NCBI RefSeq assembly: GCF_030013205.1
Contig: NZ_CP122648.1
DNA length: 64,000 nt
Strand: one strand, 5' to 3'
DNA from: Escherichia coli
Lineage (GTDB): Bacteria; Pseudomonadota; Gammaproteobacteria; Enterobacterales; Enterobacteriaceae
Under the pieces are notes generated by a model. The model was not told where the DNA came from, searched no databases, and saw only the letters and a list, made by a program, of their open reading frames with translations. How positions within the stretch are numbered: position 1 is the first letter of the stretch; each line of letters opens with the position of its first letter. Made by a program: the position numbers and the translations under genes. Below are positions 37,019-44,954 of this stretch, in pieces.

Positions 37019-38252
37019 CGCTCTGACCGTTACAAAAAGAGAAAGCGCCCCGTTGCCGGAGCGCCTTTGTGAACGAATAGCCTACTGCGCCATATTGCTT
37101 ACTGTCTACGAGGCAGATTATAGCGTTGTGGTCGCACAGAGTGAAGGCGCTGATCACCGTTACTACAGCACGCCAGAAATGCAGAATATTTTGCTGCAAA
37201 ATGCCGTTGGTCACGCCGTCCGGAAAGCAAAAAATTTTGCTGGTGGCGCGACTGATGCGATTTTGTCAGGTCGCCAGGTGCTGATCAATCTGATGTCTGA
37301 TTTCGTTCTGGATAAAACAAAGGCGACCGCAGAGGGTCGCCAGTGGGTATTACGGCAAATCAAACTTGAACGCATCACCAACAATGCCACATTTGCGGCT
37401 GGTGGGCAATGTGATCAGTCAGATTTGGTTCGTTCCAGGGTTTGCAACGAGAGCTTTTTCCTGCGCTCTTTAAGGAATTTCTCAAGAGCAAACGAACAAG
37501 GTGCGAATCTTTCTGATTCATGCTCTATCTTTCTGCGCCGTCTTTTCCGTGTCGGTGATAATGTTTTGGTCAATTCTTTATCGGTCATTGTGTTGTCCTG
37601 CATAGCAATGCGCCGTAGTTACTCACACCACGGCGCTGATAGTGATTATTCTGATTCTTTGGCCTTCCGGCGCTGTTCATATTTTAATTTGCGTCCACAG
37701 GCATCTAAGACCCATGCGGAAAAATTAGCACTAGGATTAGTTAATTTTTCTTGTTCAACGCTGGCATCAATCCCATCTATAAGCTCATGTGGGAATCGAA
37801 TATTTTTCTTTGCTGATTTGTTGTTTGTGTTACCGCTAGACATTGATGCACCTCACTTAAATGGACTTTATGGGCGCACACAATACAGCAAAAAAAATGA
37901 GATGTTAAGTATTGACATGTGCGCACACATGATTTTAATCTGTGCGCACAGTTTGAGTTTTGTCACTCAAATTAAGCAACGCCCCGCAGTGCTCGCAACA
38001 CATGCAGGGCGTCTAACCACCAACGATAGCAAGAGTATCGAGGTAGCTATGAGAAATCATACCACACACCCGCAAGGGCGGGACTCGCACAACCTGAATA
38101 AATATATCTGGCGTTTTATCGCCCTGAGCACCGCACAACCGCGCGTGATTCACATCGTGGCCACCAGCGAACAGGAAGCACGCCAGCAATCTCCTGATGG
38201 CTGCGTGATGGTATTCGCTGCCCGTATTCGTCAGGGGGTAAGTCATGCATAA
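37011..38252 (+). CDS. doubtful 413-codon open frame, translationally coupled to the antirepressor gene
   Basis: ATG overlaps the upstream stop (ATGTGTAA); first ~130 codons look protein-like, the rest is low-complexity and overlaps two minus-strand ORFs and a promoter/operator region. Confidence 0.25.
   Translation: MCNALTVTKRESAPLPERLCERIAYCAILLTVYEADYSVVVAQSEGADHRYYSTPEMQNILLQNAVGHAVRKAKNFAGGATDAILSGRQVLINLMSDFVLDKTKATAEGRQWVLRQIKLERITNNATFAAGGQCDQSDLVRSRVCNESFFLRSLRNFSRANEQGANLSDSCSIFLRRLFRVGDNVLVNSLSVIVLSCIAMRRSYSHHGADSDYSDSLAFRRCSYFNLRPQASKTHAEKLALGLVNFSCSTLASIPSISSCGNRIFFFADLLFVLPLDIDAPHLNGLYGRTQYSKKNEMLSIDMCAHMILICAHSLSFVTQIKQRPAVLATHAGRLTTNDSKSIEVAMRNHTTHPQGRDSHNLNKYIWRFIALSTAQPRVIHIVATSEQEARQQSPDGCVMVFAARIRQGVSHA
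37415..37603 (-). CDS. small basic hypothetical protein
   Basis: 62-aa Lys/Arg/Glu-rich ORF downstream of the YlcI-like ORF on the same strand. Confidence 0.4.
   Translation of the reverse strand: MQDNTMTDKELTKTLSPTRKRRRRKIEHESERFAPCSFALEKFLKERRKKLSLQTLERTKSD
37646..37843 (-). CDS. YlcI/YnfO-family (DUF3950-like) small protein
   Basis: 65-aa ORF with NIRFPHELIDGID...NFSAWVLDACGRKL, matching the prophage YlcI/YnfO pattern as I recall it. Confidence 0.55.
   Translation of the reverse strand: MSSGNTNNKSAKKNIRFPHELIDGIDASVEQEKLTNPSANFSAWVLDACGRKLKYEQRRKAKESE
37868..37951. promoter_or_regulatory. divergent promoter region with three GCGCACA operator-like sites
   Basis: GGGCGCACACAAT; TTGACA immediately followed by GTGCGCAC (8-bp palindrome); perfect 12-bp palindrome CTGTGCGCACAG. 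Confidence 0.6.
38049..38252 (+). CDS. small hypothetical protein (possibly Icd-like)
   Basis: 67-aa ORF MRNHTTHPQGRDSHNLNKYIWRFIALSTAQPRVIHIVATSEQEARQQ... with SD GAGG 5 nt upstream; the Icd-like assignment is a weak memory-based guess. Confidence 0.4.
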   Translation: MRNHTTHPQGRDSHNLNKYIWRFIALSTAQPRVIHIVATSEQEARQQSPDGCVMVFAARIRQGVSHA

Positions 38253-38610
38253 CCTGTCAATTTCTGACCTTAACTGCATTCAGTTTGACGAGAAATTTAC
38301 CGGGCAGCTACTGGTCCATGTGGAGAACGGGCGCATAGTGCGTAATTACCACCTGCCGGATGGTGCAATTGCCGGAAGTGTTGAAGCATTGCTGGAACTG
38401 GCAGAGCGTGCGCGACTGATTAATCCGTCAACGTGCTATCACGATGATGATCTGCATTTTACCGGACGCATGGTGAGCCATTATGAAAACGGCGTTGAGG
38501 TATCCCGCGAACGTATGCGTGATGATTGCTGTTTCGGCACACTGCCGGAATTTATCGAGTTGCTGACCAGTTGCGGTTATCAGGTTATTCAGGGGGTGAA
38601 TTATGGATAA
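38245..38610 (+). CDS. hypothetical protein (paralogue A)
   Basis: 121-aa ORF with SD AGGGGG; shares a FTGxLLV...G...L motif with the next ORF. Confidence 0.55.
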   Translation: MHNLSISDLNCIQFDEKFTGQLLVHVENGRIVRNYHLPDGAIAGSVEALLELAERARLINPSTCYHDDDLHFTGRMVSHYENGVEVSRERMRDDCCFGTLPEFIELLTSCGYQVIQGVNYG

Positions 38611-38803
38611 TCAGCAAGCAACAATGACAATTACCCTGAGTGCGCCAGATGATTTCACCGGACGCATACTGGTTTACCTGGATAAAGGAAAAGTGAAATC
38701 ACAATGCCGACTGAAAAGTAATGAGATTGTTGGTTCTCCTGAATTTTTTTCTGAACTCTGTATTCGTGCGGAAATAAAACCGGAACTGCTGACAGGAAAA
38801 TAA
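38603..38803 (+). CDS. hypothetical protein (paralogue B)
   Basis: 66-aa ORF overlapping the upstream stop; PDDFTGRILVYLDKGKV... parallels DEKFTGQLLVHVENGRI... in the previous ORF. Confidence 0.5.
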   Translation: MDNQQATMTITLSAPDDFTGRILVYLDKGKVKSQCRLKSNEIVGSPEFFSELCIRAEIKPELLTGK

Positions 38804-38807
38804 AACC

Positions 38808-39098
38808 ATGAAAAAGAAAAATTCTGGCTTTACTGCCAGCGGCCTCTCTCGGCCTGAAATCCGCCCCGGTGATATTTTCCGGGACACCAGACGCGGGGGA
38901 CGGGTGGTTATTCGTCACGTTACGCCAGGCAATATCACCTACCGCCGTGAGGCTTACGAATATGACTGCGTAATGCCGCGCCGTCAGTTTGATCGTGATT
39001 TTATTCTGGTGGAAAACAAACAACTGGCAGTGGCGAGACGTGCAGCCACGAATATTAAAAAAATCCGGGCAATGTTGGTTGCGGGAGGTAAGAAGTGA
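38808..39098 (+). CDS. hypothetical protein
   Basis: 96-aa ORF; stop overlaps the start of the replication gene. Confidence 0.5.
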   Translation: MKKKNSGFTASGLSRPEIRPGDIFRDTRRGGRVVIRHVTPGNITYRREAYEYDCVMPRRQFDRDFILVENKQLAVARRAATNIKKIRAMLVAGGKK

Positions 39099-40507
39099 AA
39101 AACGCACCGAGTCTAAAATATCAGCCGAAGGATAAATTCACTGAGGTAATCATTTTTGCCGGGACGGATGCTTACGCCCATGCTCAACACTGGATTGAAA
39201 GTGAAGGACGAAAACACGGCGATAACGTGCCTCCTGTTTACCTGGGGCCAAAGCAACTGGCAGACCTGGCGAATATCCGCATTATTGACGAGAAACGCCG
39301 TTTTGCGCGTGTCTATATCGCGGGGGAGATAGAGCCAATCCAGATCAATACTATCGCTGAAAAGCTGGCGCTGGCTGGCGTACAGGAGGCGAAATTATAC
39401 AAAGGTATCACCGACCAGGAACCGGAGAACTGGCGCGACTACCTGCAACGGATCCGCGAACAGGCTGAGCGCGAAGAAATGCTTACTGACGAGCAATACA
39501 GCCAGCGAAAAACCACGCTACCAATGAGCATTGGATCGGAAGGATACGATTCACAGCTTAGCTATGTGGTTAAGGGTGTGATTCCGGCTAATTCGTTGTG
39601 CAGCACATACGGTGCGAGCGGTTCTTATAAGTCGTTCCTTGCGTGTTCGTGGGCGTGTCATGTTGCTACCGGTATCCCGTGGGGAGGTCGCAGGGTTGTA
39701 CATGGTGCGGTGATGTATGTCGTTGGTGAGGGCGGGATCGGTGTTCCTCGTCGTATCAAGGCATGGGAACTGGTGAACAGTGAGCAGGTGAAAAATCTGT
39801 ACCTGGTAAATCGTCCAATTTTTCCGGCCGCACCGAGTGATGTTGATGAAATGGTTATTGCTGCCCGACAGGTTGAGCAGGAAACGGGTAAACCTGTACG
39901 CATGATTATTCTGGATACTCTGGCGCGTTGCTTTGGTGGCAGCGATGAAAATGATGCGCGGGATATGGGGGCATTTGTCCATGGATGTGACGAACTGAAA
40001 CGGCGTACAGGCGCTACAGTGCTGGTAATTCACCATTCCGGCAAGGATGAAACAAAGGGTGCGCGCGGTTCCAGTGCGTTTCGTGCAGCACTGGATGCAG
40101 AGTACCGGATACGCCGTGAAGGTGCAGGCAGTGAAGCCCTGGTTATCGCATGTACCAAGATGAAGGATGCGGAGGAACTGAAAGAAATGGCTTGCGATTT
40201 GCGCGAGGTTGAGCTTTTCAAGGATGAAGGCGGGGAGTTAATCACGTCATTGGTGCTGGAGGATAAGCCCCGTCCGCCAGTTGAACTGGAGCGCATCGAG
40301 TACGCTGCTAACAAGACAGAGAATCACGTCGCGCTATGGGGCTGTATCCGTTCACGCACGCAACGCGGAGATAAATGCACTATCCCGTTGTTGCGCGATG
40401 ACATGAAAAAGCTGGGGTATGAGATGAAACACTTCCGGCGCTGGCTGTACAAGCTGGAAGGTGACGGCGTAATCACTATTGACGGTGATGACGTGCGCCC
40501 ACTGTAA
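39095..40507 (+). CDS. replication initiator / helicase-like protein (RecA/DnaB-like ATPase)
   Basis: SD GGGAGG then GTG; Walker A-like GASGSYKSF, Walker B-like MIILDTLARCF, IHHSGKDETKGARGSSA; immediately followed by an iteron region. Confidence 0.7.
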   Translation: MKNAPSLKYQPKDKFTEVIIFAGTDAYAHAQHWIESEGRKHGDNVPPVYLGPKQLADLANIRIIDEKRRFARVYIAGEIEPIQINTIAEKLALAGVQEAKLYKGITDQEPENWRDYLQRIREQAEREEMLTDEQYSQRKTTLPMSIGSEGYDSQLSYVVKGVIPANSLCSTYGASGSYKSFLACSWACHVATGIPWGGRRVVHGAVMYVVGEGGIGVPRRIKAWELVNSEQVKNLYLVNRPIFPAAPSDVDEMVIAARQVEQETGKPVRMIILDTLARCFGGSDENDARDMGAFVHGCDELKRRTGATVLVIHHSGKDETKGARGSSAFRAALDAEYRIRREGAGSEALVIACTKMKDAEELKEMACDLREVELFKDEGGELITSLVLEDKPRPPVELERIEYAANKTENHVALWGCIRSRTQRGDKCTIPLLRDDMKKLGYEMKHFRRWLYKLEGDGVITIDGDDVRPL

Positions 40508-40900
40508 AAAGTGGGTAGCAAAAGTGGGGAGAGTGAGCAATGAGAGCCAAAGAAGCTATTTTTCCCCACTTTTAAACCTCTATATATACGCAAAAGTGGG
40601 GAGTGAAAAATTCAAAATAAAACAATGAATTATCAACTCGTGGAATCCCAATTTTTGGCGTGGTGAGAAATTGAAAAAGTGGGTAATAAAAATGGGTAGT
40701 GATGGGTAAATGAAAACTATGTGATGAAAGCAATAGGAAGATTAAAAAACAATCAATGCAATGTATTAACTAAAAATTAACTATTTACCCCACTTTTGCG
40801 TATATATAGAGGTTTAAAAGTGGGGGCTTAAAAATATATTTAAAATCATATTGTTATTAACTTCATAAATTCCCACCGGACAACGAGTGGGGAATTAAAA
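40508..40900. repeat. putative origin of replication: AAAGTGGG(G/T)A iterons plus two inverted 38-bp elements
   Basis: at least 8 iteron copies in both orientations; 40564-40601 is the exact reverse complement of 40788-40825; AT-rich spacers. Confidence 0.7.
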
Positions 40901-40909
40901 AAATTAGGA

Positions 40910-41692
40910 ATGTTAAAAATGAAAACAGAACGTTACATACCTCAGGGTATGACTTACATAGAGCGTGAAGAACTGAAAAGTTTTGCGACATCATGTGGAC
41001 TACGCGGCGATATTCAGAGCCTTACCAGAACTCTGATAATGATTGCGCACTGGATGAGGCAGGGTAAGCCAGTGAGCTTCACAGAATACGCCAGCCAGTG
41101 GACAGAGGCACAGCGCGAACGGGACGACGGTAATCACTCAACGCCTGAAATGGCGAAGCAATGGCCTTTCAGTGGCAAACGGTGCATTTATCCCAGGTGC
41201 TCCGATTACTACCCATACGGAACGGAAAGAGAACATCAGGATGACGAAACGGAAATTAAACACGCAGTAACGGTAATTCTTGCCAAATACCCGTTTTTTA
41301 ACCGCAATGGTCTTGTTCGGTATAGCCGTGACAAGCCATGGGAGCACCCGCTTGATTATGTCTGTTTTATGGAGGAGGCAAAAAGCTGTTTGCGCTGGAT
41401 AAGGGAGAACAATCTTACCGACTGCAAAATTGCATCATTCCCCGGTAAAAATCCGACATCCTACGGCCTGAAACATTGTGTTGAACGGGCGAATCAAATA
41501 AGAGCAAAGGCAAACGGAAAACCCACGGAGCCGATGTATATCACAAACGGTGCTCTAATTGCCGCAATGGTCGCGGCTGGTTATCAGATAAAGCCTGAAG
41601 GAAGGATGAATTGCCGATTCAATATTTCGCGTAAGCAGCTTAAGAGTGTATTGAGCGGGGAATCTTACAAATCAGGAGAGTGGGCGATATAA
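40910..41692 (+). CDS. hypothetical protein (Cys-containing, 260 aa)
   Basis: 260-aa ORF directly after the iteron region; no family recognised. Confidence 0.55.
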   Translation: MLKMKTERYIPQGMTYIEREELKSFATSCGLRGDIQSLTRTLIMIAHWMRQGKPVSFTEYASQWTEAQRERDDGNHSTPEMAKQWPFSGKRCIYPRCSDYYPYGTEREHQDDETEIKHAVTVILAKYPFFNRNGLVRYSRDKPWEHPLDYVCFMEEAKSCLRWIRENNLTDCKIASFPGKNPTSYGLKHCVERANQIRAKANGKPTEPMYITNGALIAAMVAAGYQIKPEGRMNCRFNISRKQLKSVLSGESYKSGEWAI

Positions 41693-41703
41693 CGGCAATA
41701 ACG

Positions 41704-42246
41704 ATGGGGCAAAGCATGACTAAGCTGACCATTAACAGAAAACCTAAAGGCATTTACGGCACGCCGCAGAAAACGACGCAGGCGGCGCAGGAGCAGGATA
41801 AAACCACGTCGGCGCATAAAGTGATGCCCGGTAACCAGAAAGCGCAGCAGAAGCCCACAGGGGCGACACCGTGGCGGCATATGACCAAGCGCCAGCGCAA
41901 AAACCGCAGGCGCGTTAACCGCCTTATCGAACTGTGGCCAGAATTATTCAGCCGGGAAGCACCGAAGCCGCTTAAGGTGGGGATATTTGACGACCTGATG
42001 CAGGATCTCGCCGTCAGGGGGCTGGCATTCGGGCCAGGGGCATTACGTGCGACGCTGGCATCTTATGCGCAGTGTCCGCGCTATTACCGCGCCTTAATGG
42101 CTGGTGGGGTACGCTACGACCTGAAAGGCCAGCCGTGCGGCGAGGTGACACCACAGGAACAACAGGACGCAGAAACGCGGCTGGTGGCGCTGAATGAGAA
42201 GCGCAAACGTCAGCGCCGGGCAGCAAAGGAGAAAACAGGCGCATGA
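41704..42246 (+). CDS. ProQ/FinO-family RNA-binding protein-like
   Basis: central region RLIELWPELFSREAPKPLKVGIFDDLMQDL...RYYRALMAGGVRYDLKGQPCGEV resembles the FinO/ProQ fold; start uncertain (41680 GTG, 41704 or 41716 ATG). Confidence 0.55.
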   Translation: MGQSMTKLTINRKPKGIYGTPQKTTQAAQEQDKTTSAHKVMPGNQKAQQKPTGATPWRHMTKRQRKNRRRVNRLIELWPELFSREAPKPLKVGIFDDLMQDLAVRGLAFGPGALRATLASYAQCPRYYRALMAGGVRYDLKGQPCGEVTPQEQQDAETRLVALNEKRKRQRRAAKEKTGA

Positions 42247-42530
42247 TTCACGACAGCAAAGCGGAAGCACTGGAAGCGCGTGGTCTGTACCGGAGAGCGG
42301 CGGCGCGGTGGGCTGAGGTCATCATGCTGGCGAATGATGACAAGGCACGGGAACAGGCGGCAAAACGTCGCGCGGAATGTATCCACAAGGCAGCACGCCC
42401 ACCAGCAAGGCAGGATAATTTCGGGGAGATGCGCGAAACCATCAGCCGGGCACATGCCGGAATGGGATTACATCAGCCCAATGGTAAGGCATTCAGGAAA
42501 TATCCTGGATCGAAAAATTGCAGTCAGTGA
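42243..42530 (+). CDS. PerC-family transcriptional activator-like
   Basis: 95-aa ORF MIHDSKAEALEARGLYRRAAARWAEVI..., ATG overlaps the upstream stop; the PerC assignment is from memory. Confidence 0.5.
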   Translation: MIHDSKAEALEARGLYRRAAARWAEVIMLANDDKAREQAAKRRAECIHKAARPPARQDNFGEMRETISRAHAGMGLHQPNGKAFRKYPGSKNCSQ

Positions 42531-42535
42531 CGGAG

Positions 42536-42606
42536 GCCGGGATTTTTCCCGGCTTTTTTGTGCCAGTAAAAAGCCCGCAGCCAGAAGTGTTGCGGGCTTT
42601 GTTTTT
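42536..42606 (+). terminator. two tandem rho-independent terminators
   Basis: GCCGGGA-TTTT-TCCCGGC plus T6, then AAGCCCGCA...TGCGGGCTT plus TGTTTTT. Confidence 0.7.
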
Positions 42607-42731
42607 CAGGTGATTGAAGTCAATGGGAAGAACGCGATCATCATGCGTTATCGTTTCATAAATTGCAATGATGTAGATCGTCATTTCAGTTTGTGCAATC
42701 ATAATCGTTGTTTTGTTCAGGAGATATGACT

Positions 42732-42905
42732 ATGAGAAAAGCCAGCGTGAAACCCGTTTTACTCGCTCGTGAGCAGATTGAAGCATTACAGCGCATCCAG
42801 GACGAGGAACGCCGCAATTCTCCGCTGGGGATTGCTCCGAGCATTCATGAGGTCGCCCGGCGTTTAATGCAGCGGGCGCTTTATCCCGTAGAACGTCCGG
42901 CCTGA
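42732..42905 (+). CDS. small hypothetical protein
   Basis: 57 codons from ATG 42732, SD CAGGAGA 7 nt upstream. Confidence 0.45.
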   Translation: MRKASVKPVLLAREQIEALQRIQDEERRNSPLGIAPSIHEVARRLMQRALYPVERPA

Positions 42906-42943
42906 TGGTCGTGATTTTTTGGTGAAAAAGAGAGGTGGTAAAA

Positions 42944-43528
42944 ATGCCAGCAAGCAAAGAAGATTTGCGATTAAAACTGATGGAGGTGGTTAACGCTCTG
43001 TCAGAGTCGCAGGGCAGCACTCCGCAGGAGATTATCGAAATTCTGAATGCGATCCCCGCACAGGATTTCACAAAAGCGGACGAGGATGACGCGAATAAAA
43101 ACATCGTCGCGTCAGTCGAAGATGAATCCTCACTGGCAGAAGCCCAGGCTAAAGCGGATTCCGCATACAGCAATATGGGCCGTCGAGCTCCGGCCCCGTT
43201 TGCTGGTGAAAAGTCGATGGATTACCGCAAGCGTGCATTAATTGGTGCACAGAAGCTGGCTAAAAAATTCAGTGATGTGGATATTCGTTCCGTTTCAGAT
43301 TCTGCAACGCTGGCGGTGCTGGAAGATCAGATTTACCAGGCTGCAAAAGACAGTGTTCAGTGGGCTGTGGAAAATACGCCGGGCTATTTGCGTAAAACCG
43401 TAAGAATGGATGAAGCCGGACGGCGGATTACTGAATATCAGGGGGATCCGAATAACTGGCTTAGTGCTTTCAAAATCCCTCCCCGTCGCCTGGTCAAAAT
43501 TAACACTGCAAGCCTCGCGGGGGCATGA
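42944..43528 (+). CDS. hypothetical acidic protein
   Basis: about 194 aa from ATG 42944 with SD AGAGGTGG; acidic, probably helical. Confidence 0.5.
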   Translation: MPASKEDLRLKLMEVVNALSESQGSTPQEIIEILNAIPAQDFTKADEDDANKNIVASVEDESSLAEAQAKADSAYSNMGRRAPAPFAGEKSMDYRKRALIGAQKLAKKFSDVDIRSVSDSATLAVLEDQIYQAAKDSVQWAVENTPGYLRKTVRMDEAGRRITEYQGDPNNWLSAFKIPPRRLVKINTASLAGA

Positions 43529-43592
43529 AAAACGTGCTGAGTTCAGCCCTGCCGGATTTGGCGGGGCTTATTGCTTATAACCGGATAACATT

Positions 43593-44276
43593 ATGCTTTT
43601 AACAGAAATTGAGGCGGCGAAGCAGATTCGGGACGGACAGCTACCGTCGCCTTATCAGTTTTCCAACATGTGGCTGGTTAACCTGCGTATCACAGGAACC
43701 GGAATGGCCTACCGCGCCGAAGAAAAAGAATTTGTCTGGCGTTCACCGCAAACTTATCTCAATCCGCAGTTCCTGGAACGTTGCGCCGGAGTACCCGTCA
43801 TTATCGACCATCCCGAAAGCAAAACCCTTGAAGACGTGGGCGAACGGTCGCGCATTATTGGCACCGTCATGTTGCCGTATATTCGCGGTGACGAGGTGTG
43901 GGGCGTATGCCGGATTTACGGACAGGAAATCATCGATTACATCCAGAAAGCCCGAGGGGAGGTATCCACCAGTCCGTCGGTTGTGTTTTGTGGTGCCTCA
44001 GGTGGGGCAGAAGTTCCTGATGTAATGGGCGAGGACAATTTTTTTATTGAGGGTACGCCATTTCTTATCGATCACGTTGCGCTCGTGCCGCTTGGTGTTT
44101 GGGATAAGGGCGGGAAACCATCGGGCGTGGAAGTAACAACGCCGACAGCAGAAGAACAGCTTGCCGGAATGGTCCGGGACGTTATTGATGCGGCCTGCAA
44201 GCCAGCTCTGGAAAAACTGGAAGAAATATCCGGGCGGCTGGATCAACTGGAAAAAAACAGAGTGAGTGAATCATGA
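43593..44276 (+). CDS. hypothetical protein
   Basis: 227-aa ORF; stop overlaps the next start. Confidence 0.55.
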   Translation: MLLTEIEAAKQIRDGQLPSPYQFSNMWLVNLRITGTGMAYRAEEKEFVWRSPQTYLNPQFLERCAGVPVIIDHPESKTLEDVGERSRIIGTVMLPYIRGDEVWGVCRIYGQEIIDYIQKARGEVSTSPSVVFCGASGGAEVPDVMGEDNFFIEGTPFLIDHVALVPLGVWDKGGKPSGVEVTTPTAEEQLAGMVRDVIDAACKPALEKLEEISGRLDQLEKNRVSES

Positions 44277-44890
44277 AAATTGCTAAAAACTTAAATCTGA
44301 TTATCCCTGTGCGCACTGAAAAGGGTAATGGCTGGCTCCATGCCACGCCGATCAGCAAAGAGGTGTTTAAAGAGCATTTCTTCATCCTGAGTAAAACCTT
44401 TTCTGCCATTTTTTCTGAAGGTCTTGGTGTTGTTGCGGGTCCGCGCGTTGCCTGCCTTATGCTGGAGAAAATCTCCCGTGACTCCGGTTTATGGGATGGG
44501 GAGAAAGGCATACGTAATACGCTCATAAACGAAATTATTCGCCTGGCAAACCTTGTTTATCCAGTGGAGGGCAAAGGCTACGACACAATCCCTCTCGATA
44601 TGGCGCTGGAGCGTGAAATCGTTGATTTGGACGAAGTGGCGGGTGAACTTGTTTTTTTTACATGCGTCTCGTCGATAAATTCCCCGGAGCAGACGAAGGG
44701 GACTATGGATGCGGTGAATGGAATATGGAGCACTCAATGCTCGTCCTTGAGTCTTACGGAATGGATCGATTCATTGCCGACATTGAAGCCTGCCGTCAGT
44801 TCTGGCGCGACGGCGAACACGTCATCAGCGACATCCTCGACTACTCAGCCGGAGCCGGATTCAGAGACATCTGTGCAGATTCCGGTCTGA
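44273..44890 (+). CDS. hypothetical protein; 3' end uncertain
   Basis: 205-aa ORF with low-complexity Ser/Thr-rich tail; alternative frame 44662-44955 is open across the same region. Confidence 0.4.
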   Translation: MKIAKNLNLIIPVRTEKGNGWLHATPISKEVFKEHFFILSKTFSAIFSEGLGVVAGPRVACLMLEKISRDSGLWDGEKGIRNTLINEIIRLANLVYPVEGKGYDTIPLDMALEREIVDLDEVAGELVFFTCVSSINSPEQTKGTMDAVNGIWSTQCSSLSLTEWIDSLPTLKPAVSSGATANTSSATSSTTQPEPDSETSVQIPV

Positions 44891-44954
44891 ATGTAAAAAC
44901 AGCAGCTCAGTTTCGTGAGCTGCTCAAATTCAAAAATCCCGCAGGAGTATTGTA

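What the first reader, a model, noticed from the sequence alone, without database searches (positions are those of the whole stretch)
41704..42530. Island encodes a ProQ/FinO-like RNA-binding protein and a PerC-like activator
The first ORF has the basic N-terminus and the KPLKVGIFDDL...RYYRAL...GGVRYDLKG pattern I associate with the FinO/ProQ RNA chaperone fold. The second resembles the PerC family of small activators. Both being on a mobile element suggests it could reprogram host post-transcriptional and transcriptional networks. Two tandem terminators (42536-42606) close the operon.
Basis: partly seen in the sequence, partly recalled or inferred. Interest (0 to 1): 0.6.

Follow-up and report, generated by a model that had tools for sequence, protein, structure and literature searches.

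The report
FinO-like and PerC-like satellite genes

Summary
Both ORFs are real and both family calls hold. ORF 1 (true start 41716, not 41704; stop 42246) matches Pfam ProQ/FinO (E 1.3e-23). Its model matches only FinO-domain structures in the PDB and keeps the Tyr/Arg 3'-end pocket. ORF 2 (42243-42530) matches Pfam PerC end to end (E 5.6e-32). The genes overlap by ATGA and are followed by two strong terminator hairpins (42536-42559, 42570-42606).

The window is E. coli ETEC4079. The genes lie in a 14.7-kb PICI-type phage satellite inserted in yifB/comM (integrase, AlpA, antirepressor, helicase, iteron origin). RefSeq already names both proteins this way.

The pair moves as a discrete cassette (41699-42561). 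Near DNA matches occur in 326 of 5,426 complete E. coli genomes. The same pairing was recorded in EAEC 042 in 2010. The PerC-like protein is the full-length form of PchE from O157. PchE does not activate LEE; it represses csgD/curli and raises flagella. The gene next to pchE encodes a FinO-like protein 172/176 identical to this one.

I found no study of the satellite FinO-like protein and could not identify an RNA partner. The two genes are often linked but each also occurs without the other.

Verdict: correct, already known, low to moderate interest.

The parts
34188..48923 (+). 14.7-kb PICI-type phage-satellite island inserted in yifB/comM. It is bounded by imperfect direct repeats at 34188-34210 and 48901-48923.
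   Evidence: RefSeq annotates split yifB fragments on both sides. The direct repeat is D18. Related IMG/VR contigs are mostly 10-17 kb.
34380..35609 (+). Tyrosine integrase
   Evidence: RefSeq annotation of the identical record.
35977..36165 (+). AlpA-family regulator/excisionase
   Evidence: Pfam Phage_AlpA, E 3.4e-18; phrog_2790.
36218..37018 (+). AntA/AntB-type antirepressor
39095..40507 (+). RepA-type helicase (replication gene)
   Evidence: phrog_2850, E 2e-220, plus primase/helicase PHROGs; RefSeq 'helicase RepA family'.
40506..40825 (.). Putative replication origin: AAAAGTGGG(G/T)-type iterons and a perfect 38-nt inverted repeat flanking an AT-rich core
   Evidence: Repeats D16 and I1. 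The layout matches the PICI origins described in PMC6092414.
41716..42246 (+). FinO/ProQ-domain protein, 176 aa (WP_000164224.1). Residues 1-55 are disordered and basic. The FinO domain starts at about residue 58, and a long basic C-terminal helix spans residues 146-174.
   Evidence: Pfam, E 1.3e-23. PDB sequence hits to ProQ, FinO, NMB1681, Lpp1663 and RocC. AF2 model plus Foldseek: the top 27 hits are all FinO-domain structures.
42243..42530 (+). PerC-family protein, 95 aa (WP_000581047.1); the full-length form of PchE. Its start overlaps the FinO stop (ATGA), and AAGGAG lies at 42226-42231.
   Evidence: Pfam PerC, E 5.6e-32; phrog_994; PchE relative P0219.
42536..42559 (+). Intrinsic terminator 1 (GGCCGGGA-UUUU-UCCCGGC followed by U6). 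It forms the 3' end of the conserved cassette.
   Evidence: The conserved block in E. coli genomes ends at about 42561.
42570..42606 (+). Intrinsic terminator 2 (12-bp stem plus a U-rich tail). It belongs to the variable downstream module.

Best explanation
What it is (shown). The two ORFs form a translationally coupled FinO-domain / PerC-family cassette. It sits at the 3' end of the rightward replication-gene block of a PICI-type phage satellite integrated in yifB of E. coli ETEC4079. The cassette (41699-42561, including terminator 1) travels as one unit between satellites that differ in their replication and packaging modules.

How it most likely works (inferred).
- The FinO-like protein has a single FinO domain flanked by basic extensions, which is FinO-like architecture. 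It has no ProQ-type C-terminal domain.
- It keeps the Tyr/Arg pocket that in RocC, FinO and ProQ holds the 3'-OH end of an intrinsic-terminator hairpin. The likeliest activity is therefore binding to terminator-type hairpins with U-tails, protecting those RNAs or matching them with partners.
- The cassette's flanks are unrelated in most relatives. Its RNA ligand must therefore travel inside the cassette (its own mRNA 3' end, terminator 1) or be generic (host, helper-phage or satellite terminators). A dedicated neighbouring antisense gene is less likely.
- The PerC-like protein is the intact version of PchE. By family analogy it acts on transcription at AT-rich, H-NS-bound DNA. In PchE this shows up as csgD/curli repression and increased flagella, not LEE activation.
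- The two proteins are made together, but either can work without the other.
For: Family identity.

Fold: residues 55-176 have pLDDT around 90. Foldseek gives only FinO-domain structures at E < 0.1, with TM up to 0.84 to RocC.

RNA-contact residues, from the ProQ alignment, with roles taken from PMC9674577. Conserved: G37->G89, K35->K87, R58->R111, R69->R122, Y70->Y123, R80->R133, D82->D135. All are invariant or nearly so in 29 relatives.

Element identity: 100% match to ETEC4079 with RefSeq annotation; AlpA; iteron origin and att repeats.

Cassette behaviour: 84-94% of 79 related loci share 41700-42200, against 5% for the upstream flank and 22-24% for the downstream flank. The conserved block in E. 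coli genomes is query positions 100-962.

Linkage: in 51 of 79 FinO loci, PerC lies directly downstream. In 4 more the order is reversed.

PchE relationship: the 54-aa protein that sources name PchE is 89% identical. It is truncated by a 1-nt deletion. It is preceded, with the same 4-nt overlap, by a ProQ-family gene whose product is 172/176 identical to this one.

PchE and Pch function: PMC6265319, PMC7369912, PMC4764244.
Against: - No RNA partner was found. Rfam gives nothing above noise in the island. Synonymous-site diversity is flat along both genes. Terminator 1 is degraded or replaced in some relatives.
- The N-cap serine of the hairpin-binding helix is glycine here (G106), and two basic ProQ contact positions are lost (K54->P107, R62->A115).
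- The genes are separable. 19 of 79 FinO loci have no PerC, and 52 of 80 PerC-relative loci have no FinO.
- Both genes look dispensable in places. The FinO gene is frameshifted in strain 83972, and pchE is truncated in O157.
- Nothing here shows expression, RNA binding or any phenotype in this strain.
- The PerC model has no informative structural match.
Confidence: 0.8

Rival explanations
1. Dedicated cis-antisense system, as in FinO/FinP or FopA/Inc. The FinO-like protein would serve one satellite-encoded antisense RNA that controls the satellite's own rightward operon. One candidate is the roughly 75-nt minus-strand unit at about 37110-37034, antisense to the start of the Icd-like ORF just after ant.
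For: Known FinO-domain proteins on mobile elements act on single antisense RNAs (PMC9977716). The candidate has the best sigma-70 match in the island (TTCACT-17-TATAAT) and an 11-bp GC-rich hairpin followed by a T-tract. Across 14 sequence variants the hexamers and the hairpin are kept while the RNA body diverges.
Against: Co-inheritance is loose. 28 of 43 informative loci with the hairpin carry FinO and 15 do not. Only about 45-50% of FinO loci carry that region. The region is also protein-coding on the + strand, which could explain part of the conservation. Fold z is only -2.3. There is no Rfam family and no transcript evidence.
Confidence: 0.2
2. The PerC-like protein is the satellite's own late activator. 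It would turn on the downstream morphogenesis/packaging operon (promoter-like site at 42678-42705) or act on helper-phage genes, rather than on host genes.
For: It sits just before two terminators and a new operon with its own promoter-like site and Shine-Dalgarno sequence. Several PHROG relatives are labelled transcriptional activators.
Against: Only 22-24% of related loci share the downstream module, and the cassette is found ahead of unrelated modules such as TerS and major head protein. A specific activator-promoter pair would be expected to stay together. PchE is expressed at a basal level without induction and falls on SOS induction (PMC6265319).
Confidence: 0.15
3. The FinO-like protein interferes with host ProQ. 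It would compete for or mimic ProQ at host 3' ends (for example hns, fliC, and the GlmY/Z routes to csgD), so that together with the PerC-like protein it shifts the same curli / flagella / H-NS regulon.
For: The 3'-end pocket is conserved. ProQ in EHEC binds 3' hairpins of hns, ihfA and fliC and affects csgD, motility and LEE. [quoted passage not shown] PchE affects csgD and flagella.
Against: This rests on analogy only. Identity to ProQ is about 33% over the domain. The protein has no ProQ C-terminal domain. There are no expression or binding data.
Confidence: 0.2
4. The genes are decaying cargo with no current function.
For: The FinO gene is frameshifted in strain 83972, pchE is truncated in O157, and PerC-like remnants occur in L069-L073.
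Against: Both ORFs are intact here. There are hundreds of sequence clusters with conserved functional residues. The cassette is retained across mosaic satellites, and the overlapping start/stop is preserved.
Confidence: 0.03

Closest known systems
pchE (group 3 perC homolog, O-island 51 of E. coli O157:H7) and the unnamed ProQ-family gene directly upstream of it
   Same: Same island architecture: int, Ant, DUF4222, AAA_25 helicase, then ProQ and PerC with a 4-nt overlap. The FinO-like proteins are 172/176 identical. The PerC-like proteins are 89% identical over the 54 residues of PchE.
   Different: O157 PchE is cut to 54 aa by a 1-nt deletion, whereas this copy is the full 95 aa. In the fetched islands that carry this exact PchE (L084, L085), an SSB gene sits between the 257-aa ORF and the ProQ gene. 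The insertion site is also different. The published work concerns pchE only: csgD/curli repression, increased flagella, no LEE effect (PMC6265319, PMC7369912).
Ec042-2429 / Ec042-2430 in ROD34 of EAEC 042
   Same: A proQ-like gene followed by a PerC-like gene on a small island next to a tRNA gene, noted in the 2010 genome paper (PMC2808357).
   Different: An 8-kb island at tRNA-Pro.
FinO (F-like plasmids) and FopA (IncI plasmid pCol1B9)
   Same: A single FinO domain with basic N- and C-terminal helical extensions, encoded on a mobile element. The best NCBIfam hit is FinO. The fold matches 1DVO with TM 0.53-0.60.
   Different: Only about 30-39% identical over about half the protein. The NCBIfam score of 63.7 is below the cutoff of 136. 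There are no tra genes and no FinP or Inc counterpart. The gene lies on a phage satellite, not a plasmid.
ProQ (chromosomal global RNA chaperone)
   Same: The FinO domain gives the best PDB sequence hit (5NB9, E 7e-12). The equivalents of K35, R58, R69, Y70, R80 and D82 are conserved.
   Different: No linker and no Tudor-like C-terminal domain. The NCBIfam score of 57.5 is below the cutoff of 127. The N-cap Ser is replaced by Gly.
PerC (EPEC pEAF), PchA/B/C (EHEC prophages) and EcCIMP1_025 (PICI EcCIMP1)
   Same: All belong to Pfam PerC. The N-terminal core D-x-KAE-x-LE-x-x-GLYRRAA-x-RW is shared. PerC-type genes are a recognised PICI accessory (PMC6092414, PMC11773190).
   Different: PerC and PchABC activate LEE1. 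The group 3 protein PchE does not, and EcCIMP1_025 represses LEE1. Most PerC relatives at or below 53% identity have no FinO neighbour.

Membership tests
FinO/ProQ domain family (Pfam PF04352) | Significant match to the domain profile over its full length | tested here: met
   E 1.3e-23, model positions 5-108 of 109.
FinO/ProQ domain family (Pfam PF04352) | FinO fold | tested here: met
   AF2 pLDDT is about 90 for residues 55-176. The top 27 Foldseek PDB hits are NMB1681, FinO, RocC, Lpp1663 and ProQ.
FinO/ProQ domain family (Pfam PF04352) | 3'-nucleotide pocket (RocC Gly52, Tyr87, Arg97) and backbone-contact Arg75 | tested here: met
   G89, Y123, R133 and R111 align to ProQ G37, Y70, R80 and R58 and are nearly invariant in relatives. 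Residue roles come from PMC9674577. The RocC-to-ProQ numbering correspondence is my own mapping.
FinO/ProQ domain family (Pfam PF04352) | Helix N-cap serine (RocC Ser70 / ProQ Ser53) that reads the hairpin phosphates | tested here: inconclusive
   The aligned residue is Gly106, within FGPGALR. Glycine can cap a helix, but the conserved Ser is absent.
FinO/ProQ domain family (Pfam PF04352) | Binds structured RNA with a 3' tail | not testable with these tools
   Needs EMSA or CLIP.
ProQ proper (NCBIfam NF003434, equivalog) | Score above the curated cutoff; linker plus C-terminal Tudor-like domain | tested here: not met
   57.5 bits against a cutoff of 127. Pfam finds only the N-terminal-type domain in a 176-aa protein.
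FinO proper (NCBIfam NF010317) | Score above the curated cutoff; F-like tra context with FinP/traJ | tested here: not met
   63.7 bits against a cutoff of 136. The island has no tra genes. Plasmid FinO proteins are 30-39% identical.
PerC family (Pfam PF06069) | Full-length profile match | tested here: met
   E 5.6e-32, model positions 1-89 of 90. The conserved core is shown.
PerC family (Pfam PF06069) | Activates the LEE1 (ler) promoter | not testable with these tools
   The closest studied relative, PchE, has little effect on LEE (PMC6265319). A PICI homolog represses LEE1 (PMC11773190).
PICI (Gram-negative phage-inducible chromosomal island) | Integrase, AlpA regulator and a replication gene followed by an iteron origin, all in one orientation, in an element of about 10-15 kb | tested here: met
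   The island is 14.7 kb. Criteria are from PMC6092414.
PICI (Gram-negative phage-inducible chromosomal island) | No phage structural or lytic genes | tested here: inconclusive
   No capsid, terminase or tail genes were found. However, the island has a DUF2213 / head-protease-like ORF (43593-44276) and a 679-aa protein with a lytic-transglycosylase domain (44955-46994).
PICI (Gram-negative phage-inducible chromosomal island) | Induced, packaged and transferred by a helper phage | not testable with these tools
   Needs induction and transduction experiments.

The most novel reading that the evidence does not exclude
The FinO-domain / PerC cassette could be a two-layer regulatory module specific to enterobacterial phage satellites. 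The RNA chaperone and the small H-NS-antagonist-type regulator would act together: on one shared regulon (curli / flagella / H-NS-silenced genes or helper-phage genes), or with the FinO-like protein controlling the stability of the PerC mRNA through its terminator. That would make it the first FinO-family protein with a role in satellite-helper-host interplay. Three observations leave this open. The genes are adjacent in two different orders across 41-100% identity. The start/stop overlap is conserved. Chromosomal ProQ is reported to influence ler through PerC in EPEC.
Probability: 0.2. Interest if true: 0.55.

Novelty: already known. Interest (0 to 1): 0.25.

Why it matters
As a finding it adds nothing to existing annotation. 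Identical proteins carry these names in RefSeq. PerC-type genes are a recognised PICI cargo with published phenotypes. The proQ-like/PerC-like pairing was listed in 2010.

The open part is the satellite FinO-like subfamily. It is a distinct clade, at most about 39% identical to plasmid FinO and about 33% to ProQ. Near DNA matches occur in about 6% of complete E. coli genomes, and the gene sits next to pchE in O157-type islands. I found no paper in the searchable library that studies it. If it binds host or helper-phage RNAs, satellites would be another route by which mobile elements alter post-transcriptional control in pathogenic E. coli. It would also be a confounder in ProQ studies of strains that carry it.

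Tried and rejected
1. Rfam scan of the whole island at E <= 1. It returned only two sub-threshold chance-level hits, one of them on the terminator pair. No known sRNA family is present.
2. Covariation or conservation of the downstream hairpins as a specific RNA element. Hairpin 1 is kept in many relatives but degraded or replaced in others, with no compensatory changes. It looks like an ordinary terminator.
3. Synonymous-site diversity along both genes, to detect an embedded or antisense RNA. The profile is flat (0.07-0.25) with no convincing trough.
4. Weak minus-strand terminator-like sites inside the FinO gene (41924-41908 and 41765-41749). They have 5-bp stems and the count is at the chance level for the scan. 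Dropped.
5. Strict FinO-PerC co-inheritance. Rejected, because each gene occurs without the other.
6. Co-inheritance of the candidate antisense unit at about 37034-37110 with FinO. It is loose: 28 of 43.
7. Fold search with the PerC-like model. No match below E = 1, only generic helical-repeat hits.
8. PDB sequence search for the PerC-like protein. Nothing.
9. PADLOC defence models on nine island proteins. No hit.
10. Isolated phage genomes. No near DNA match and only distant protein matches, so the cassette belongs to satellites, not to sequenced phages.
11. An RGDR motif search to locate RgdR. No exact motif was found, and the DUF4222 ORF has RPGD instead.
12. Porter et al. 2005 (PMC543544) could not be read because it is not held.

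Full report
**Observation**

The + strand carries two adjacent ORFs at the stated place. The first frame is open from 41680 to the stop at 42246. Three things place the start at 41716. Relatives share the N-terminus MTKLTINRK. A GGGG Shine-Dalgarno-like motif 7-12 nt upstream is conserved. The 41704 ATG is missing in many relatives, which read ...TTACAGGGGAAGGC ATG. RefSeq uses 41716 as well.

The second ORF runs 42243-42530. Its ATG overlaps the first gene's TGA (ATGA), and AAGGAG lies 11 nt upstream.

Two hairpins follow directly. Hairpin 1 has a 7-bp GC-rich stem, a UUUU loop and a U6 tail (42536-42559). Hairpin 2 has a 12-bp stem and a U-rich tail (42570-42606). The 91-nt stretch folds at -40.5 kcal/mol, z = -4.56, and none of 200 shuffles folds as well.

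**Family assignments**

ORF 1 matches Pfam ProQ/FinO (PF04352) at E 1.3e-23 over model positions 5-108 of 109. By sequence it finds the solved FinO-domain structures: ProQ-NTD 5NB9 (7e-12), FinO 1DVO (4e-10), NMB1681, Lpp1663 and RocC.

An AlphaFold2 model built on 29 relatives has pLDDT around 90 for residues 55-176 and a disordered N-terminal 50 residues. Its 27 best Foldseek PDB matches are all FinO-domain proteins, with TM up to 0.84 to RocC.

I used the ProQ alignment together with the RocC-RNA structure paper (PMC9674577) to check the RNA-contact residues.
- Conserved: the 3'-nucleotide pocket and backbone-contact residues G89, R111, Y123 and R133 (ProQ G37, R58, Y70, R80), plus K87, R122 and D135. 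All are invariant or nearly so in the family.
- Changed: the helix N-cap serine is glycine (G106), and two basic ProQ positions are lost (P107, A115).

NCBIfam scores for FinO (63.7 against a cutoff of 136) and ProQ (57.5 against 127) are well below threshold. There is no ProQ C-terminal domain. The protein is therefore a FinO-domain protein of its own subfamily. Its architecture resembles FinO: one domain between a basic N-terminal helix and a long basic C-terminal helix.

ORF 2 matches Pfam PerC (PF06069) at E 5.6e-32 over the whole model. Its model is four helices with pLDDT 77 and has no meaningful PDB match by sequence or by fold.

**The element**

The window is identical to E. coli ETEC4079, a pig isolate. 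The genes lie in a 14.7-kb insertion that splits yifB/comM, between ilvL and maoP. It is bounded by an imperfect 23-nt direct repeat at 34188-34210 and 48901-48923. The gene order is:
- integrase
- AlpA (Pfam E 3.4e-18)
- AntA/B antirepressor
- Icd-like fragments interrupted by a minus-strand ylcI-like gene
- small ORFs
- DUF4222
- RepA-type helicase
- an origin-like region with AAAAGTGGG iterons and a perfect 38-nt inverted repeat
- a 260-aa hypothetical protein
- the FinO-like and PerC-like genes and the two terminators
- a separate operon encoding DUF2213 / head-protease-like, hypothetical and lytic-transglycosylase-domain proteins
- a 175-aa protein whose N-terminus resembles a TerS N-terminus
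- AAAAGTGTCAA repeats

This is the Gram-negative PICI layout described by Fillol-Salom et al. (PMC6092414). One criterion, the absence of structural or lytic genes, is only partly satisfied. Related IMG/VR contigs are mostly 10-17 kb. Isolated phage genomes have no close copy of either gene. True plasmids carry only distant FinO relatives, 30-39% identical.

**A mobile cassette**

Near DNA matches to 41600-42700 occur in 326 of 5,426 complete E. coli genomes, all on chromosomes. The shared block is typically query positions 100-962, which is window 41699-42561. It starts just upstream of the ribosome-binding site and ends just after terminator 1.

Among 79 IMG/VR loci that encode a relative of the FinO-like protein, 84-94% share 41700-42200. 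Only 5% share the 800 bp upstream, and 22-24% share the downstream operon. The cassette's G+C content (56-59%) exceeds the island average of 48.6%.

The cassette sits behind different replication genes: RepA helicase, DUF927 primase and primase-like proteins. An SSB gene often lies immediately upstream.

Linkage between the two genes is frequent but not obligatory.
- From the FinO side (79 loci): PerC lies directly downstream in 51. It lies directly upstream in 4, with about 42% PerC and 60% FinO identity, followed by a TerS gene. Degenerate PerC remnants lie about 0.4 kb downstream in 4. There is no PerC in 19, and 1 locus is uninformative.
- In those 19 loci an unrelated 82-aa protein (phrog_1957) and a major head protein follow the FinO gene, which marks capsid-forming satellites.
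- From the PerC side: only 28 of the 80 best PerC-relative loci have a FinO gene within 4 kb, and it is always immediately upstream. Most PerC relatives at or below 53% identity lack one.

**What is already known**

RefSeq labels the identical proteins WP_000164224.1 'ProQ/FINO family protein' and WP_000581047.1 'PerC family transcriptional regulator'. The EAEC 042 genome paper (2010) lists a proQ-like gene next to a PerC-like gene on ROD34 (PMC2808357).

PICIs of E. coli are known to carry PerC variants (PMC6092414). The PerC-like gene of EcCIMP1 represses LEE1 in Citrobacter rodentium (PMC11773190).

The closest named relative is PchE, at 89% identity over its 54 residues. Contigs that encode that exact PchE show the same island architecture, with a 176-aa ProQ-family gene overlapping the pchE start. 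That protein is 172/176 identical to the one here, and O157-type pchE is a 1-nt-deletion truncation of the 95-aa form present here.

PchE is the group 3 perC homolog of O157, placed on O-island 51 by Flockhart et al. (PMC3378721). It has little effect on LEE. It strongly represses csgD and curli, and it increases flagella. It is expressed at a basal level that falls on SOS induction (PMC6265319; PMC7369912). PchA acts by binding AT-rich DNA inside H-NS-bound regions and remodelling H-NS complexes (PMC4764244).

On the FinO side, the FinO/ProQ review notes phage- and plasmid-borne members only in general terms (PMC9977716). [quoted passage not shown] I found no study of the satellite FinO-like protein in the searchable library.

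**Mechanism**

Shown: family, fold, conserved pocket, overlapping coding frames, strong terminators and cassette behaviour.

Inferred: the FinO-like protein binds terminator-type hairpins with 3' U-tails. Because its flanks change from island to island, a dedicated neighbouring antisense partner is unlikely. Its ligand should either lie within the cassette (the 3' end of its own bicistronic mRNA, terminator 1) or be generic. By analogy with PchE and PchA, the PerC-like protein modulates transcription of H-NS-associated genes.

I looked for a specific RNA partner and did not find one.
- Rfam shows nothing.
- Synonymous diversity is flat.
- Terminator 1 is not universally kept.

One lead did turn up. 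A promoter-plus-terminator unit lies on the minus strand at about 37145-37033. It would give an RNA of about 75 nt, antisense to the start of the ORF that follows ant. Its -35 and -10 hexamers and its hairpin are retained across 14 variants while the RNA body diverges. Its co-occurrence with the FinO gene is loose: 28 of 43 informative loci, and about half of FinO loci carry that region. I therefore rank it as a rival explanation, not the main one.

A third possibility is overlap or competition with host ProQ. ProQ affects hns, fliC, csgD and LEE in EHEC. In EPEC its effect on ler is modulated by PerC (PMC12426089). This rests on analogy only.

**Verdict**

The 'activator' label and the idea of host reprogramming are family-based expectations. 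For this clade the published data point instead to repression of csgD and no LEE activation. The finding is already in public annotation and the literature, so it is ordinary. The only open question is what the satellite FinO-like protein binds and whether it works together with its PerC-type neighbour.

Noticed in passing
window 37033-37145, minus strand: Candidate cis-antisense small RNA of about 75 nt. It has -35 TTCACT, a 17-nt spacer and -10 TATAAT (the best promoter match in the island), then an 11-bp GC-rich hairpin and a T-tract. It is antisense to the first 30 or so codons of the + strand ORF starting at 37011, just after ant. The hexamers and hairpin are kept in 14 variants while the RNA body diverges. 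The exact hairpin occurs in 59 IMG/VR contigs. There is no Rfam family for it.
   Followed up: partly
window 40506-40825: Origin-like region right after the helicase gene. It has AAAAGTGGG(G/T) iterons and a perfect 38-nt inverted repeat (40564-40601 / 40788-40825) around an AT-rich core, as described for PICI origins.
   Followed up: no
window 38808-39098 (+): A 96-aa DUF4222 ORF directly upstream of the replication gene, overlapping its start by 4 nt. It is probably the RgdR family described for O-island 51 (99 aa, RGD at residues 20-22). This copy has RPGD at residues 19-22 instead of RGD. The homology to RgdR was not tested.
   Followed up: partly
window 47574-47835: A cluster of direct and inverted AAAAGTGTCAA repeats just downstream of a 175-aa ORF (47046-47573) whose N-terminus weakly resembles a TerS or HTH N-terminus. 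This may be a packaging (cos/pac) site with a small-terminase-interacting protein. About 49% of related loci share this module.
   Followed up: no
window 42935-44276 (+): Two adjacent ORFs match different parts of one 545-aa PHROG (phrog_6216) in permuted order: 42935-43528 matches positions 405-545, and 43593-44276 matches positions 115-326. RefSeq calls the first 'NUDIX hydrolase' and the second DUF2213. The NUDIX label looks doubtful.
   Followed up: no
window 44955-46994 (+): A 679-aa protein with a C-terminal lytic-transglycosylase domain, related to tape-measure or injection-transglycosylase PHROGs, on a satellite that has no capsid, tail or terminase genes. This is unusual cargo for a classical PICI and may hint at the type of helper phage.
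   Followed up: no
window 37293-38252: The Icd-like gene is split by a minus-strand ylcI/ynfO-family gene (about 37646-37843). That insert is present in only about 3% of related loci, while its flanks are present in about 45-50%.
   Followed up: no
window 41716-41880 (residues 1-55 of the FinO-like protein): The N-terminal 55 residues are predicted to be disordered (pLDDT below 50), yet they are well conserved (MTxLTINRKPKG...), and codons 13-36 have somewhat low synonymous diversity. The reason is unknown. It could be a protein-interaction motif or an overlapping nucleic-acid signal.
   Followed up: partly
L003 8975-9492 (strain 83972); L084 9001-9165: Natural knock-outs exist. The FinO-like gene is frameshifted in the asymptomatic-bacteriuria strain 83972, which has an identical PerC-like protein. 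O157-type pchE is truncated to 54 aa by a 1-nt deletion, while its FinO-like neighbour is intact.
   Followed up: partly
L078-L081 (for example L079 5601-6585): In a divergent satellite lineage the gene order is reversed: PerC-like first, then FinO-like, then TerS. The FinO-like protein there has a C-terminal extension.
   Followed up: partly
L004 13469-15425 (E. coli 55989 island): A related satellite carries an AAA ATPase plus a DUF4435 gene pair at its 3' end. This resembles known anti-phage defence cargo (a PARIS-like pair, from memory). It was not tested.
   Followed up: no
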